A stretch of DNA of 48,195 bases, taken from the IMG/VR virus record IMGVR_UViG_2519899780_000006; one strand, 5' to 3'. Origin of the DNA: a virus (taxonomy: Duplodnaviria; Heunggongvirae; Uroviricota; Caudoviricetes). The position numbers were made by a program, and so were the translations under genes. Shown here piece after piece: positions 1 to 29,631 of this stretch. The notes under the pieces were generated by a model that saw nothing but the letters and a program-made list of their open reading frames with translations, did no database searches and was not told the origin of the DNA. Position 1 is the first letter of the stretch; each line of letters opens with the position of its first letter.

Positions 1-582
1 TTACTCTGCAGGTGAAGTCGGCCACTCAATATCAGGTGCAGTTGATGTATCAACACGGTTCAGCAACACCCGATACTTTTTCCAGGCTTCCAGCAATGAG
101 GTTTCTTCCTCCGTTGCAATTTCCAGATCTGCAGCATCCTGAAGCGGCGCAATATGCTCACTGGCTACCTGCATCAGGTTGTTTTTTGTTTCTTCCGCCT
201 CCCGGATCCGGAACAGTTTTTCTGCTTCCGTATCCTTCACCCAGGCTGTGCCGTTCCACTTCTGAAACTCCCCTTCCGGCGATAACCAGGTAACATTTTC
301 CGGTAACGGACCGAGTTCAGAAATAAATAACTCGTCCCCTGACGCTACGTCATAAACCGTTTTACCCCGATGGTCTTCAACGAGATGCCACGATGCCTCA
401 TCACTGTTGAAAACAGCCACAAAGCCAGCAGGAATATCTGGTGGTGCAATATCGGTACTGTTTGCTGGCAGACCTGTATGAGGCGGAATATATGCGTCAC
501 CTTCACCAATAAATTCATTAGTTCCGGCCAGCAGATTATAAATTTTTATGGTCCGTGGTTGTTCACTCATTCTGAATGCCAT
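1..582 (-). CDS. tfa: Tail fiber assembly protein Tfa
   Basis: 193-aa ORF beginning [24 protein letters not shown], near-identical in my recollection to lambda Tfa; stop codon at window positions 1-3; follows stf as in lambda. Confidence 0.9.
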
Positions 583-20712: not shown

Positions 20713-20915
20713 AACCTCACTCCCAGCGGACGACGGCGACGCCGGGTTGTCCCCAGTACCGACTCCGCATCATTGATCGCCCGGTTAAGCTCATCCAGAG
20801 AAGCCGCCGTATATTCAATTCTGCGACCATCTTTCTGGACAGACACCACCCGTTTACCGGTTAATAAATCAAGGCGCGCCTGACGCAGCGCCTGCAGTTC
20901 AGCGACTGTAACCAT
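20709..20915 (-). CDS. W: Head-tail connector protein W
   Basis: 68 aa, exactly lambda gpW length; between A and B. Confidence 0.8.
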   Translation of the reverse strand: MVTVAELQALRQARLDLLTGKRVVSVQKDGRRIEYTAASLDELNRAINDAESVLGTTRRRRRPLGVRL

Positions 20916-22827
20916 TCACTCCTCCGGACAGCTTCGCTGCCAGTTCTTTAAGGGTTGGCCGGGTCGTCTCTTCTTCCCGGGATTTTGCCAGTACAGCCAG
21001 ATCAAGCTGCCAGCGTTGCACGGACACACGTAATGCCGCGTAGGCATACACCAGGCAGTCCAGCGCTTCGTTACGCCGCTTTTTGTTATCCCACAGCAGA
21101 CGCATCTTTCCTTTTTCCCACTTCTCCACAAGCTCTTCCGCCACCAGTTGCTGCGCCTCTGTCTGCGAAAAAATCTCCGGATCATCAGGAAAACGGATGG
21201 CATACGACGTGGCTTCATCCGCAGGCGTGGGATCGGCTTTCATACGGGCATAGAGAATTTCTTTTGCGGTGTCCGTCCCCACTTCGCACAGATACACGCC
21301 CCGCTGATTGCGGGTTTTTGGCATGGTGATCACCGGCTTGCCATAAACAGATGCACCTTTTACCGGCAGCACCCGGAAAACACCGTGTTTTTTTGACCTC
21401 TGATAGACAATTTCGCCATCGATCCCCCCTGTGTCCCAGCAGACACGGGAAATGGTCATTTCGGTTCCGTCTGCATGGCGGTATTTTTTGTTGATCGCCA
21501 CATCCACACGTAACAGCGTCTCTTCCTCATCGGGACGCCCCATAATGATGATTTTATCCACCAGAAAGGCTTCCTCTCCCGGAGCCCATCCCCAGACATA
21601 CATCTCAAAACGGTTTCGCTGCGAGTCAATGCCCGCCGTCAGATAAACCACCCGGGCAGGCACCGCCGCCGTGTAATGCACGACCTTATCCATCAGTACC
21701 TGGTGATCGAGTTTTTCGCCCACGGCCTCTTCCCAGGTCTCGCCCAGCGTGGTGTTCACAAATGTTTTCAGGCCGTTGGGATCTTTCAGTGCATCCAGCC
21801 AGTCATAGACAATCTGTACCCAGGTGGTGAACGGACTGTACGCCGTCCAGATATGGAATGTGATGGAGCGCGGCGGCGGAATTTCATTACCCGCAGCGCT
21901 GAAAAACGTCAGGCCGTCACGGGTCCACATGCCCGTGTTTTCACAGATCCACCGCCCGTTGCTCTGGTCAAGATCAGACTGATGGATCACGCAGCCATGA
22001 TGTTCACAGAGGTAGAAAACACTTTCTGGACTGTCCTTCTCCCATTTAAGGCCAAAAGGCGTGGACTCATCGCCAAATTTCAGATACTGCTCCTCCCCGC
22101 AGTGTGGGCAGGGCACATAAAAACGCATAAAATGCGCCGACTCGTTGGCCGCTTTTTCGATCTGGCAGGAACCTTTTATTTTTGGCGTCGAGCCGCGAAT
22201 GGATTTTGGCCATACCGAGCCCTCAATACGCTTATCCCCCAGCAGGGTTGGCGAGCCCTCTTTTTCGACATCCGGTTCGAACGAGGAAAGCTCGTCATAG
22301 CAGACCACATCCACGGATTTTTCACGGTAGTTTTTTGCTGCCGCACCACCCAGGCACCAGAAACCCACACCCGATGAAAAGCGTTTCAGCGTGAGGGTAT
22401 TATCACGATGTTTACGTCCCAGCCAGGGAGAAAGTTTTTTCAGGCAGGGAACATCGCGAATCGTCGCCTCCACGTGAGACTTCATAAAATCTTCAGCGGC
22501 AGAATCCGTGGGCTGAAAAAGCAGACTGTTTCGGGATTTATGCTCAATAAAATACCCGGCGACTCCCAGCAACATCTTTGTATAGCCAACACGGGCAGAT
22601 TTAATCAGATTAACAGTCCGGATCTGATCATTCCCCATGCTGTTCATGATGGCGATCTGGAACGGCAGCGTTTTCCATTCGCCGTCACCATATGAAGATT
22701 CTTTAGGCAGATAATAATTTTGATCAGCCCATTCAACTGGCGTCACCGGCAATGCCCTTATCAGGGGCTGTAATGCTGTTGTGACAGCACTCATCATATT
22801 ATTCAGTTGTTGCTCTGATATATTCAT
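20899..22827 (-). CDS. A: Terminase large subunit A
   Basis: Start taken at MNISEQQLNN (ATG 22825-22827), giving 642 aa; WADQNYYLPKESSYGDGEWKTLPFQ matches lambda gpA as recalled. The ORF track extends 19 codons upstream. Confidence 0.9.
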   Translation of the reverse strand: MNISEQQLNNMMSAVTTALQPLIRALPVTPVEWADQNYYLPKESSYGDGEWKTLPFQIAIMNSMGNDQIRTVNLIKSARVGYTKMLLGVAGYFIEHKSRNSLLFQPTDSAAEDFMKSHVEATIRDVPCLKKLSPWLGRKHRDNTLTLKRFSSGVGFWCLGGAAAKNYREKSVDVVCYDELSSFEPDVEKEGSPTLLGDKRIEGSVWPKSIRGSTPKIKGSCQIEKAANESAHFMRFYVPCPHCGEEQYLKFGDESTPFGLKWEKDSPESVFYLCEHHGCVIHQSDLDQSNGRWICENTGMWTRDGLTFFSAAGNEIPPPRSITFHIWTAYSPFTTWVQIVYDWLDALKDPNGLKTFVNTTLGETWEEAVGEKLDHQVLMDKVVHYTAAVPARVVYLTAGIDSQRNRFEMYVWGWAPGEEAFLVDKIIIMGRPDEEETLLRVDVAINKKYRHADGTEMTISRVCWDTGGIDGEIVYQRSKKHGVFRVLPVKGASVYGKPVITMPKTRNQRGVYLCEVGTDTAKEILYARMKADPTPADEATSYAIRFPDDPEIFSQTEAQQLVAEELVEKWEKGKMRLLWDNKKRRNEALDCLVYAYAALRVSVQRWQLDLAVLAKSREEETTRPTLKELAAKLSGGVNGYSR

Positions 22828-23308
22828 CGAGTAAATCCGGTAATTTATCCCCCGCCCGCGCACACTGATTTGCCCCCTTCGCAATAAGGGTTTTCAGATG
22901 GTCAAGATGGCGCGGAGTTAAATCAGGAAACTGTCGCTGCATGGATAAAGGGATGGAATCAAGCGTACTGGATAACGCCATTGCCAGCTTGCTGAGGGCA
23001 AAAATACAGAACCCGGTGTCAATAAGTTTTCCTTTTGACACCTCATTTTTTAACTGCTGTGTAACAGCCTGTTCTGCTGTCAGTTCCCATCTGGCAATAA
23101 GCAATTTCTCCTCATAGTCGTCTTCGCTATCGCCATCAGGCACATCGTTTTTACTTCTTCTCAGATACGATATGTAAAAATCGCGCCAGGCATCCAGATC
23201 CAGTTGCCCTCGCTTATTCGATATCGGGGCACCCGGCAATTTCTGCAATCTGCGAAGCTGGCGATCGGTCAGACTTAAATGCCTGGCAACTTCAGTCTGC
23301 GTAGCCAC
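22799..23308 (-). CDS. nu1: Terminase small subunit Nu1-like
   Basis: 169 aa; C-terminal half resembles lambda Nu1; N-terminal HTH region diverged; overlaps A start; adjacent to cos. Confidence 0.8.
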   Translation of the reverse strand: MATQTEVARHLSLTDRQLRRLQKLPGAPISNKRGQLDLDAWRDFYISYLRRSKNDVPDGDSEDDYEEKLLIARWELTAEQAVTQQLKNEVSKGKLIDTGFCIFALSKLAMALSSTLDSIPLSMQRQFPDLTPRHLDHLKTLIAKGANQCARAGDKLPDLLDEYIRATTE

Positions 23309-23339: not shown

Positions 23340-23503
23340 TCACAACAAAACCGGTCATGTCCGGTTTTAGTGTCTATTTTTTGCGCATGTCCGGTTCATG
23401 GAAAGCATGTTTTTATATTTTTCATATGGTTAACTTGCAGAGAAACCGGACATGGATCCCGGAAAATTTTCATAAATAGTGAAAATCCGCGAGGTCGCCG
23501 CCC
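23340..23503. other. cos: Cohesive end site cos (cosB repeats plus cosN)
   Basis: cosN aggtcgccgccc at 23492-23503 (reverse complement GGGCGGCGACCT, the lambda 12-nt cohesive end). Flank matches lambda cos in reverse complement. Three copies of CATGTCCGGTT: 23356 and 23386 direct, 23444 inverted. Confidence 0.7.
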
Positions 23504-23709
23504 CGTAACCGGTCGGATCGCCGGAAAGGACCCACGAAATGATAATTATTATCATCTATATAAGGTTTATCACAACATGTGTGTACGCCATCAAACCACG
23601 AGAAATAATCAATTATGACGCAGGTATCGTATTAATTGATCTGCGTCAAATTAACGTAAAAGCAACTTCTGATAATACAAATCAGCAACACTGAATATGG
23701 GGAAACATT

Positions 23710-23895
23710 ATGTCATCAAAGAACAGAACGCGCAGAACAACAACCCGCAACATCCGATTTCCAAACCAGATGATTGAACAAATTAACATCGCTCTTGATC
23801 TGAAAGGTTCAGGAAACTTTTCAGCGTGGGTTATTGAAGCCTGCAGAAGAAGGCTGTCAACAGAGAGTTCGGGTATGAATTACATAATTAAGTAA
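23710..23895 (+). CDS. Small basic protein, possible ribbon-helix-helix (YlcI-like position)
   Basis: 61 aa, MSSKNRTRRTTTRNIRFPNQMIEQINIALDLKG; on the strand opposite the late genes, in an AT-rich stretch next to cos. Confidence 0.4.
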   Translation: MSSKNRTRRTTTRNIRFPNQMIEQINIALDLKGSGNFSAWVIEACRRRLSTESSGMNYIIK

Positions 23896-29381: not shown

Positions 29382-29458
29382 TGGCGCGTTGTACTGGATT
29401 CGAACCAGTGACCGATTGCTTAGAAGGCAATTGCTCTGTCCGGCTGAGCTAACAACGC
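29382..29458 (-). tRNA. argO: tRNA-Arg (anticodon UCU)
   Basis: 77-nt cloverleaf folded by hand: acceptor GCGTTGT/ACAACGC, D stem GCTC/GAGC, anticodon loop CUUCUAA, T loop TTCGAAT, 3' CCA encoded. Confidence 0.85.
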
Positions 29459-29474
29459 AGGATACAGATAATGA

Positions 29475-29548
29475 ACCGCCTTCGGGGACCCGAACTCCGC
29501 GCAACCAGCTTCGAAGGCTGGCGCTCTATCCTGATGAGCTAATGGCGG
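29475..29548 (-). tRNA. argN: tRNA-Arg (anticodon UCG), slightly imperfect
   Basis: About 74 nt; anticodon loop CUUCGAA; T loop TTCGGGT; one mismatch each in acceptor and T stems; no encoded CCA. Ends approximate. Confidence 0.6.
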
Positions 29549-29555
29549 TATGTGA

Positions 29556-29631
29556 TGGTGGCCCTTGCTGGATTTGAACCAGCGACCTGGCGATTATGAG
29601 TCGCTCGCTCTCACCACTGAGCTAAAGGGCC
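29556..29631 (-). tRNA. ileZ: tRNA-Ile2 (anticodon CAU), ileX/ileZ-like
   Basis: 76 nt reading GGCCCTTTAGCTCAGTGGTGAGAGCGAGCGACTCATAATCGC...CCACCA, close to E. coli ileX as recalled. Confidence 0.85.

What the first reader, a model, noticed from the sequence alone, without database searches (positions are those of the whole stretch)
23340..23503. cos with lambda-identical cosN but distinct terminase-binding repeats
The 12-nt cohesive-end sequence and its immediate flank match lambda in reverse complement. The repeats between cosN and Nu1 are three copies of CATGTCCGGTT (two direct, one inverted), and the Nu1 N-terminal DNA-binding region is diverged. This suggests lambda-type cutting with an altered packaging specificity.
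Basis: partly seen in the sequence, partly recalled or inferred. Interest (0 to 1): 0.4.

Follow-up and report, generated by a model that had tools for sequence, protein, structure and literature searches.

The report
Lambda-type cos, new terminase-binding class
This is the DNA-packaging start site (cos) of a lambda-like E. coli prophage: it should be cut exactly like lambda's, but it is recognised through a different, apparently undescribed pairing of small-terminase DNA-binding domain and binding sites, a pairing found in about a fifth of complete E. coli genomes.

Summary
Window 23492-23503 (minus strand) is lambda's 12-nt cohesive end (12/12). bp 13-45 match lambda 31/33, and cosQ is present. 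From bp 46 onward similarity to lambda falls to chance.

CATGTCCGGTT occurs exactly three times, at phage bp 50-60 (forward), 108-118 and 138-148 (both reversed). A fourth 10/11 copy makes a palindrome at the third site.

In diverged relatives the boxes stay at the same positions, around an IHF-like site at bp 72-84. They change in concert within each genome and track helix residue 20: Arg with ATGTCC, Asn/Asp with ATTTCC. A satellite-like element carries this cos from bp 1 to exactly the end of the third box.

I conclude this is a lambda-architecture cosB of a distinct specificity class. Its box is closest to phage 21's (CATGTCGG plus one C). It occurs in 1174 of 5426 complete E. coli genomes, and I found no description of it. 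No binding or packaging test exists. It is a new variant of a known kind, of moderate interest.

The parts
23527..23533 (-). cosQ core GGGTCCT (phage bp -30..-24), the packaging-termination element
   Evidence: Same sequence and same distance from cosN as in lambda. Invariant in all relatives, including distant ones, and kept in the satellite-like element.
23492..23503 (-). cosN: 12-nt cohesive-end sequence GGGCGGCGACCT. Phage bp 1 = window 23503.
   Evidence: 12/12 identical to lambda and 21. The flanking CG dinucleotides are conserved.
23459..23486 (-). I2-like AT-rich segment (phage bp 18-45) between cosN and cosB
   Evidence: bp 13-45 are 31/33 identical to lambda. The I2 segment is defined as bp 18-50 in PMC4856287.
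23444..23454 (-). R3: CATGTCCGGTT at phage bp 50-60, proposed critical TerS site
   Evidence: Exact copy. Same position as lambda/21 R3, bp 50-65. Present at bp 50/52-60/64 in every relative examined.
23420..23432 (+). I1-like IHF site TTTCATATGGTTA (phage bp 72-84, bottom strand), with an A/T tract on the R2 side
   Evidence: 2 mismatches to WATCAANNNNTTR here. 0-1 mismatch at the same bp 72-84, on the same strand, in 8 of 9 relatives. Lambda and 21 I1 lie at bp 74-86 on the same strand.
23386..23396 (+). R2: CATGTCCGGTT inverted relative to R3 (phage bp 108-118)
   Evidence: Exact copy. An inverted partner of R3 lies at bp 106/108-118 in all enteric relatives. The R3-to-R2 span is 69 bp, against 68 in lambda and 67 in 21.
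23356..23366 (+). R1: third exact copy, same orientation as R2 (phage bp 138-148)
   Evidence: Exact copy. Homology between the satellite-like element and this cos ends exactly at this box. Present in L100, weak in L096, absent in several relatives.
23349..23359 (-). Fourth box, CATGACCGGTT (10/11), same orientation as R3 (phage bp 145-155). It overlaps R1 and forms a palindrome.
   Evidence: Lost in two IMG/VR variants and in the satellite-like element, so probably accessory. It also scores as a weak bidirectional terminator-like hairpin.
22799..23308 (-). TerS (Nu1-type small terminase, 169 aa, GTG start). Residues 1-58 form the MATQ-type winged-helix DNA-binding domain.
20899..22827 (-). 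TerL (gpA-type large terminase, 642 aa from the ATG), overlapping the TerS 3' end by 29 nt
   Evidence: GpA_ATPase and GpA_nuclease domains. 66% identity to lambda gpA over the full length. RefSeq annotates the same 1929-nt gene.

Best explanation
Window 23349-23533 is the complete cos site of a lambda-like prophage, which reads on the minus strand. The subsites, in order, are cosQ, cosN, an I2 segment, and a cosB made of R3, an IHF-type bend site (I1), R2 and R1.

The proposed mechanism follows lambda. The N-terminal winged-helix domains of a TerS dimer bind the CATGTCCGGTT boxes R3 and R2 across an IHF-induced bend. This anchors TerL on cosN, 50 bp away. TerL makes the staggered nicks that give lambda-identical 12-nt 5' cohesive ends, and cosQ serves termination.

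The recognition module differs from lambda. It pairs a MATQ-type DNA-binding domain with TCCGGTT-core boxes and forms a separate class from the lambda, 21, N15/Monarch, Gifsy-1 and PICI-Rpp modules. This phage should therefore select its own kind of DNA even though its ends can anneal with lambda's.

Shown here: the sequence anatomy, the positional conservation, the concerted change of boxes, the tracking of boxes with a helix residue, and the fold prediction. Inferred: TerS binding, IHF bending, the nick positions and the exclusivity of specificity.
For: (a) Anatomy. cosN is 12/12 identical to lambda, bp 13-45 are 31/33 and cosQ is in place. bp 46-195 are only 28% identical to lambda.

(b) Box positions. 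Boxes lie at bp 50-60 (forward), 108-118 and 138-148 (both reversed). An IHF-like site lies at bp 72-84. The R3-R2 span is 69 bp, against 67-68 bp in 21 and lambda.

(c) Diverged relatives. In 11 diverged enteric MATQ-class loci (10 distinct sequences; TerS 60-81% identical where measured) with seven different cosN sequences, R3 and R2 stay at the same coordinates and always carry the same variant within a genome.

(d) Tracking with the helix. The box variant follows residue 20 of the predicted recognition helix.
- Arg20 goes with ATGTCCGGTT (window, L100, L102, L106, L107).
- Asn/Asp20 goes with [AG]TTTCCGGTT or ACTTCCGGTT (L094, L096, L098, L101, L103, L104, L105, L108, L234, L236/L239).
- Residue 15 does not track: E15/R20 gives G and D15/N20 gives T.

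(e) Distant members. Aeromonas phage phiARM81ld, whose record starts at the cohesive end, has CATTTCCGGTT at bp 52-62. Pseudomonas phage LPPA33 and several metagenome-assembled genomes keep the TTCCGGTT core next to cos.

(f) Control. TerS proteins with the same C-terminal half but an N15-type N-terminus have GGTTGTTGT boxes at bp 48-60 and 107-118.

(g) Fold. The domain-only model has pLDDT 84. [quoted passage not shown]

(h) Satellite capture. A satellite-like element without terminase carries this cos at 98-100% identity from bp 1 to bp 147, the end of R1, and nothing beyond.

(i) Live phages. Phages PhiR12_1 to _5 are recorded with lab E. coli strains as hosts. PhiR12_1 has the identical cos, with boxes at bp 50, 108 and 138.
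Against: - There is no experimental evidence here for binding, bending, cutting or specificity.
- The window's own I1 has 2 mismatches to the IHF consensus.
- Among close E. coli variants the whole region is 87-100% conserved, so the boxes do not stand out sharply there.
- The Arg20/G tracking may rest on few independent evolutionary events, because the Arg20 proteins also share other residues.
- R1 is oriented like R2, unlike lambda, where R1 matches R3. R1 is missing in several relatives, so its role is unclear.
- Sequence searches did not link the N-terminal domain to Nu1: no PDB sequence hit, and hhalign probability only 6%.
- The full-length Foldseek search gave no significant hit.
Confidence: 0.85

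Rival explanations
1. The anatomy and binding are as described, but the specificity is not exclusive. The box is the phage 21 box plus one base, so 21-type (or N15-type) terminase, or this terminase on 21 DNA, may cross-package. A precedent is N15 terminase packaging lambda DNA.
For: The window box CATGTCCGG resembles the 21 boxes TC[GA]TGTCGG. The related Asn20-class box CATTTCCGG resembles lambda CGTTTCCG. By the hhalign register, helix residue 20 (R) corresponds to 21 residue R21, and N in the sister class corresponds to lambda N21. Asymmetric cross-packaging is documented for N15 and lambda (PMC4669245).
Against: There is a one-base insertion inside the core. R3 is shifted 3 bp towards cosN relative to 21, and in lambda changes of 3 bp in cosN-cosB spacing are severe (PMC9026076). 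The DNA-binding domains share no detectable sequence identity.
Confidence: 0.12
2. The repeats are not terminase sites. They would be operators for a transcription factor, or RNA/DNA hairpins (a terminator or attenuator) controlling expression of the head operon or of antisense transcripts.
For: The R1 palindrome scores as a bidirectional terminator-like hairpin (9 pairs, loop 6, T-rich tails). The region has 5 terminator-like hits against 0.5 expected.
Against: The hairpin's second half is lost in natural variants and in the satellite-like element, while the boxes are kept. R3 and R2 are 47 bp apart and flank an IHF-like site exactly as in lambda. The boxes track the TerS helix. No Rfam family matches.
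Confidence: 0.03

Closest known systems
Phage lambda cos with Nu1 (TerS)
   Same: - cosQ, cosN (12/12) and the I2 segment match.
- R3 lies near bp 50-60, I1 near bp 72-86, R2 is inverted near bp 108-120, and the TerS start is near bp 191-196.
- The TerS C-terminal half is 46% identical, TerL is 66% identical, and the TerS/TerL genes overlap.
   Different: - The box is CATGTCCGGTT instead of CGTTTCC.
- cosB is shifted 2-3 bp towards cosN.
- R1 is oriented like R2 and carries an overlapping palindromic partner.
- The TerS N-terminal domain is not recognisable by sequence.
Phage 21 cosB with gp1
   Same: Identical cosN. The closest box sequence, TC[GA]TGTCGG against CATGTCCGG. The same R3-I1-R2-R1 plan. 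An Arg at the equivalent helix position, R21 in 21 and R20 here.
   Different: One extra C in the core. The 3' flank is TT. R3 lies 3 bp closer to cosN. The gp1 DNA-binding domain shows no detectable similarity: tblastn aligns only residues 64-166.
N15 / Monarch class
   Same: It shows that a different DNA-binding domain and different boxes can sit on the same lambda-like chassis, in simple (N15) or tripartite (Monarch) form. The MATQ class likewise has tripartite enteric forms and simple forms such as phiARM81ld and LPPA33.
   Different: The boxes are GGTTGTTGT and the TerS N-terminus is MAVLLNK/MAFLLNK.
PICI cos with Rpp (EcCICFT073 and relatives)
   Different: R3-PICI is AAGGTGACACCACCACCT. 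Rpp lacks the TerL-binding C-terminus and works as a heterodimer with helper TerS. Here the domain is part of a complete TerS next to TerL.

Membership tests
Lambda-type cos site (cosQ-cosN-cosB) | 12-nt 5' cohesive-end sequence in a partly symmetric cosN flanked by CG | tested here: met
   GGGCGGCGACCT, 12/12 identical to lambda, at window 23492-23503. The flanks match lambda (ttaCG | GGGCGGCGACCT | CGcgg).
Lambda-type cos site (cosQ-cosN-cosB) | cosQ about 30 bp upstream of cosN | tested here: met
   GGGTCCT at bp -30..-24 (window 23527-23533), as in lambda. Invariant in relatives.
Lambda-type cos site (cosQ-cosN-cosB) | R3 TerS site about 50-65 bp from the nick, with an inverted R2 across an IHF site (I1) | tested here: met
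   R3 at bp 50-60, an IHF-like site at bp 72-84 and inverted R2 at bp 108-118. The same layout holds in all enteric relatives. The I1 match in the window itself is weak (2 mismatches).
Lambda-type cos site (cosQ-cosN-cosB) | R1 in the same orientation as R3 | tested here: not met
   The exact third copy (bp 138-148) has the orientation of R2. Only a 10/11 overlapping copy (bp 145-155) has the orientation of R3. R1 is variable or absent in relatives.
Lambda-type cos site (cosQ-cosN-cosB) | Virion DNA ends map to cosN, and terminase binds cosB | not testable with these tools
   The records of the phages with this cos (PhiR12_1 to _5) are not cos-permuted, and no end mapping was found.
Lambda packaging specificity | R boxes with the CGTTTCC core, and TerS recognition helix RTIQNWQE | tested here: not met
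   No CGTTTCC is present. bp 46-195 are 28% identical to lambda. The helix is DRQLRRLQ.
Phage 21 packaging specificity | R boxes TC[GA]TGTCGG at bp 53-60, 112-119 and 150-165, and helix RTIERWQS | tested here: not met
   The box has an extra C and lies 3 bp closer to cosN. The DNA-binding domain is not alignable by BLAST. Functional cross-recognition is untested.
Nu1-type small terminase (Pfam PF07471) | C-terminal oligomerisation and TerL-binding region | tested here: met
   PF07471 E = 1e-18 over residues 49-150. 46% identity to lambda Nu1 residues 86-177.
Nu1-type small terminase (Pfam PF07471) | N-terminal MerR-like winged helix-turn-helix DNA-binding domain | tested here: met
PICI cos / Rpp system | R3-PICI sequence, and an rpp gene (no TerL-binding tail) directly downstream of cos | tested here: not met
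   R3-PICI-A is AAGGTGACACCACCACCT. The gene downstream here is a full TerS followed by TerL.

The most novel reading that the evidence does not exclude
The MATQ-type TerS domain and its TCCGGTT-core boxes are a further, uncharacterised packaging-specificity class of lambda-like phages. The class spans Enterobacteriaceae to Aeromonas, Pseudomonas and Azospirillum-like genomes. It has a readable one-residue/one-base code, helix Arg20 with G and Asn/Asp20 with T at box position 4. This parallels the N21/R21 and T56/G56 difference between lambda and 21. It is mutually exclusive with lambda and 21 packaging despite identical cohesive ends. It is exploited by PICI-like satellites that copy the helper's entire cos (cosQ to R1) instead of using an Rpp adaptor.
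Probability: 0.5. Interest if true: 0.55.

Novelty: new variant of a known kind. Interest (0 to 1): 0.4.

Why it matters
Packaging specificity decides which DNAs in a cell with several prophages are encapsidated. Strains with several lambdoid prophages often carry more than one cos of this class: 1886 places in 1174 of 5426 complete E. coli genomes. That is twice as many genomes as the 21-type cosB (582).

Knowing its recognition module helps predict which prophages, defective prophages and satellites can be mobilised by which helper, including in O104:H4-type strains.

The family also offers a natural series for studying how a small-terminase helix reads DNA, through the Arg/Asn switch at residue 20 matched with G/T. 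The same chassis exists in simple and tripartite cosB forms.

Finally, it gives a ready orthogonal cos/TerS pair with lambda-compatible cohesive ends for cosmid or packaging tools.

None of this changes the general picture of lambda-type packaging.

Tried and rejected
- PDB sequence search with TerS found nothing relevant.
- Foldseek with the full-length model found no hit at E<0.8. The long C-terminal helices are low-confidence, at pLDDT 50-70. The domain-only model was needed.
- The genome-contig scan with the family alignment returned only 6 distant loci and no enteric ones.
- The viral-contig scan with the alignment returned 80 near-identical E. coli loci. These gave only a weak footprint, because the whole region is conserved.
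- Pattern scans for the T-variant boxes in IMG/VR gave few hits: 0, then 1 relevant of 4, then 2 relevant of 6.
- Full-text searches for the box sequence, for the RefSeq protein accession and for PhiR12 found no paper on this cos. The key lambda/21 genetics paper (PMC5006951) is not held.
- Rfam found nothing.
- Similarity of the boxes to PICI R3 was considered and rejected.
- Chance repeats were considered and rejected.
- A terminator role for the R1 palindrome is unlikely, because natural variants lose the hairpin and keep the box.

Full report
**What is in the window.** The head genes of a lambda-like prophage read on the minus strand.
- TerL (gpA family) is at 20899-22827.
- A 169-aa small terminase (TerS) is at 22799-23308, overlapping TerL by 29 nt.
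- Upstream lie the non-coding stretch under study, a DUF3950 gene on the other strand, and the lysis genes.
- The first 24 kb are 99.9% identical to a prophage of E. coli O104:H4-type strains.

I number the site as in lambda. Phage bp 1 is window 23503 and numbering runs down the minus strand.

**Check of the observation.** The reverse complement of 23492-23503 is GGGCGGCGACCT, identical to lambda's cohesive end.
- bp 13-45 are 31/33 identical to lambda.
- bp -40..-1 are 34/40 identical, including the cosQ core GGGTCCT at bp -30..-24.
- From bp 46 to the TerS start, identity drops to 28% ungapped, which is chance level.

CATGTCCGGTT is present exactly three times, at window 23444-23454 (-), 23386-23396 (+) and 23356-23366 (+). 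A fourth copy with one mismatch lies at 23349-23359 (-). It overlaps the last copy to give the palindrome AACCGGTCATGTCCGGTT.

With one mismatch allowed, the window holds 6 hits against 0.97 expected, and no shuffle reached 6. No other cluster of three 11-mers exists in the 48 kb, and none appeared in 20 shuffles.

In phage coordinates the boxes are R3 at bp 50-60 (forward), R2 at 108-118 (reversed) and R1 at 138-148 (reversed). The partner copy is at 145-155 (forward).

**The protein.**
- Pfam's Nu1 model matches only residues 49-150.
- BLASTP against lambda Nu1 aligns only residues 73-164, at 46% identity.
- tblastn against 50,697 phage records aligns lambda, 434, phi80, N15, 21 and Gifsy-1 only from residue 59-73 onward.
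- TerL is 66% identical to lambda gpA along its whole length.

Homologues show that one C-terminal half is joined to three kinds of N-terminus:
- MATQxEVAxHL, the kind in this window;
- MAFLLNK or MAVLLNK;
- a lambda/21-like MNVNKKKLAEIF.

A domain-only AlphaFold model of residues 1-58 has pLDDT 84. It shows helix 4-10, helix 15-22, a wing, and helix 38-54. [quoted passage not shown]

The N-terminus therefore has the same fold as Nu1's DNA-binding domain, but it is too diverged for sequence methods.

**Comparative evidence that the boxes are the TerS sites.** I fetched cos regions next to diverged MATQ-class TerS genes. They came from E. coli, Klebsiella, Salmonella, Enterobacter, Citrobacter and metagenomes, with TerS 60-81% identical to the window's. 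Two phage-like IMG/VR contigs were added.

These loci carry seven different cohesive-end sequences and have otherwise unalignable spacers. Even so, each has a box at bp 50/52-60/64 and its exact inverted copy at bp 106/108-118. Between the two boxes, 8 of 9 relatives have a 0-1-mismatch IHF consensus at bp 72-84 on the bottom strand. The window has 2 mismatches there. Lambda and 21 I1 lie at bp 74-86 on the same strand.

The R3-to-R2 span is 69 bp, against 68 bp in lambda and 67 bp in 21. The geometry for a TerS dimer bridging an IHF bend is therefore preserved, with the whole cosB 2-3 bp closer to cosN.

Within each genome all boxes carry the same variant, and the variant follows helix residue 20.
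- Arg20 goes with ATGTCCGGTT (window, L100, L102, L106, L107).
- Asn or Asp20 goes with ATTTCCGGTT, GTTTCCGGTT or ACTTCCGGTT (L094, L096, L098, L101, L103, L104, L105, L108, L234, L236/L239).
- Residue 15 does not track. E15/R20 goes with G (L106, L107), and D15/N20 goes with T (L236, LPPA33).

An Arg-guanine contact is the obvious reading, but that is inference. The number of independent evolutionary switches may also be small.

Distant members keep the core.
- Aeromonas phage phiARM81ld, whose record begins at the cohesive end, has CATTTCCGGTTCCGGTT at bp 52-68 and its TerS start at bp 79.
- Pseudomonas phage LPPA33 and several metagenome-assembled genomes look similar.
- The class therefore has both N15-like simple cosB forms and tripartite forms.

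A control supports the link between domain and boxes. TerS genes with the same C-terminal half but an MAFLLNK-type N-terminus have GGTTGTTGT boxes, the N15/Monarch type (PMC4669245). These lie at bp 48-60, 107-118 and 186-199. Domain and boxes are therefore exchanged together, while the positions stay fixed.

**A natural delimitation of the site.** Seven IMG/VR loci carry this cos without any terminase gene. One of them, L132, encodes the following, and no terminase:
- a P4-type integrase;
- a D5_N primase;
- SSB;
- PerC;
- gpE-like and gpD-like capsid proteins.

Compared with the window, L110 keeps the cosQ heptamer and GTTACG. It is then 98-100% identical from bp 1 to bp 147, the last base of R1, and unrelated beyond that. 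This is what one expects if cosQ-to-R1 is the unit needed for packaging by a helper of this class. It also suggests that the palindromic partner of R1 is dispensable. Two phage-side variants likewise lack that partner, and one locus (L227) has lost the 30 bp between R2 and R1.

**Relation to known boxes.** The phage 21 boxes, annotated in M81255, are TCGTGTCGG, TCATGTCGG and TCATGTCGG. The lambda core is CGTTTCC. The window box CATGTCCGG is the 21 box with one extra C. The sister box CATTTCCGG resembles lambda's CGTTTCCG.

The T/G difference falls at the base that distinguishes lambda from 21, bp 56 (PMC4669245). In the hhalign register, residue 20 here corresponds to N21 of lambda and R21 of 21. 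The published genetics assign that discrimination to residues 20 and 24, so I treat this parallel as suggestive only.

It does mean the boxes are a variant on the lambda/21 theme rather than unrelated sequences. Cross-recognition with 21 cannot be excluded, although the 1-bp insertion and the 3-bp shift argue against it. The PICI R3 (AAGGTGACACCACCACCT) is unrelated.

**Prevalence and literature.**
- A 153-bp cosB-only query finds this class in 1174 of 5426 complete E. coli genomes, at 1886 places. The lambda type is found in 3999 genomes, where the listed hits are annotated nohD. The 21 type is found in 582.
- Among deposited phages, only PhiR12_1 to _5 have this cos. They are listed with lab E. 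coli strains as hosts. PhiR12_1 has the identical cos, with boxes at bp 50, 108 and 138.
- Full-text searches found no description of this box or protein. The reviews I could read list lambda/434/phi80, 21, N15/Monarch, Gifsy-1 and PICI-Rpp as the known classes. Subscription literature is not covered, so "undescribed" is provisional.

**Verdict.** This is a genuine, complete lambda-type cos. Its cutting and termination elements match lambda, and its recognition module belongs to a separate, widespread and apparently uncharacterised class. It is a new variant of a known kind. Interest is moderate, because the architecture and mechanism are those of lambda and nothing has been tested at the bench.

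Noticed in passing
L110, L117, L123, L132, L145, L148, L191 (IMG/VR); for example L132, reverse strand, cos bp 1 at position 347 of the reversed locus: A satellite-like element (PICI/P4-like) has a P4-type integrase, D5_N primase, SSB, PerC, and gpE-like and gpD-like capsid genes, but no terminase. It carries this exact cos, 98-100% identical from bp 1 to bp 147 (the end of R1), with no rpp-like gene next to it. This suggests direct mimicry of the helper cos rather than Rpp-type redirection.
   Followed up: partly
L165, L197, L218, L129 (IMG/VR), compared with window 23492-23503: The same cosB and the same TerS recognition-helix segment are combined with different 12-nt cohesive-end sequences: GGGCGGCAGACG, GGTCATAGCACG, GGTCGTAGGACG and GGGCGTCGACCT. 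Across the wider MATQ class further cosN sequences occur. The cutting site and the recognition module therefore recombine freely.
   Followed up: partly
L227; also L129 and L136 (IMG/VR): L227 has a 30-bp deletion that fuses R2 and R1, as expected from recombination between the direct repeats. L129 and L136 have a 29-bp longer leader that lacks the palindromic partner of R1. Some copies also carry single-base changes in R2 (GGGCATG, GGATATG).
   Followed up: no
window 23538-23556 (phage bp -36..-54), just upstream of cosQ: A conserved AT-rich palindrome, TGATAATTATTATCA, matches the 19-bp Fur-box consensus 15/19 here and 16/19 at the same place in lambda. It is kept in most relatives across cos classes. 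Its function at cos is unknown to me.
   Followed up: no
window 23710-23895 (+): A 61-aa DUF3950 (YlcI/YnfO family) gene lies between the lysis genes and cos, on the strand opposite to the late operon. Lambda has a homologue at its right end.
   Followed up: no
window 29382-29631 (-): Three phage-borne tRNA genes, Arg(tct), Arg(tcg) and Met(cat), lie upstream of the lysis region. In a near-identical genome a SASA-family esterase gene lies between them and the holin gene.
   Followed up: no
L230, L231 (Klebsiella, Salmonella): Monarch-type cosB (GGTTGTTGT boxes at bp 48-60, 107-118 and 186-199) is joined to a TerS whose C-terminal half is closer to the window's than to N15's. This is clear mosaicism at the junction between the DNA-binding domain and the rest of TerS (about residue 60).
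   Followed up: partly
L100 (Enterobacter kobei), phage bp 84-96: In this relative the IHF-consensus match lies on the opposite strand and 12 bp further from R3 than in all others, while R3, R2 and R1 keep their positions.
   Followed up: no
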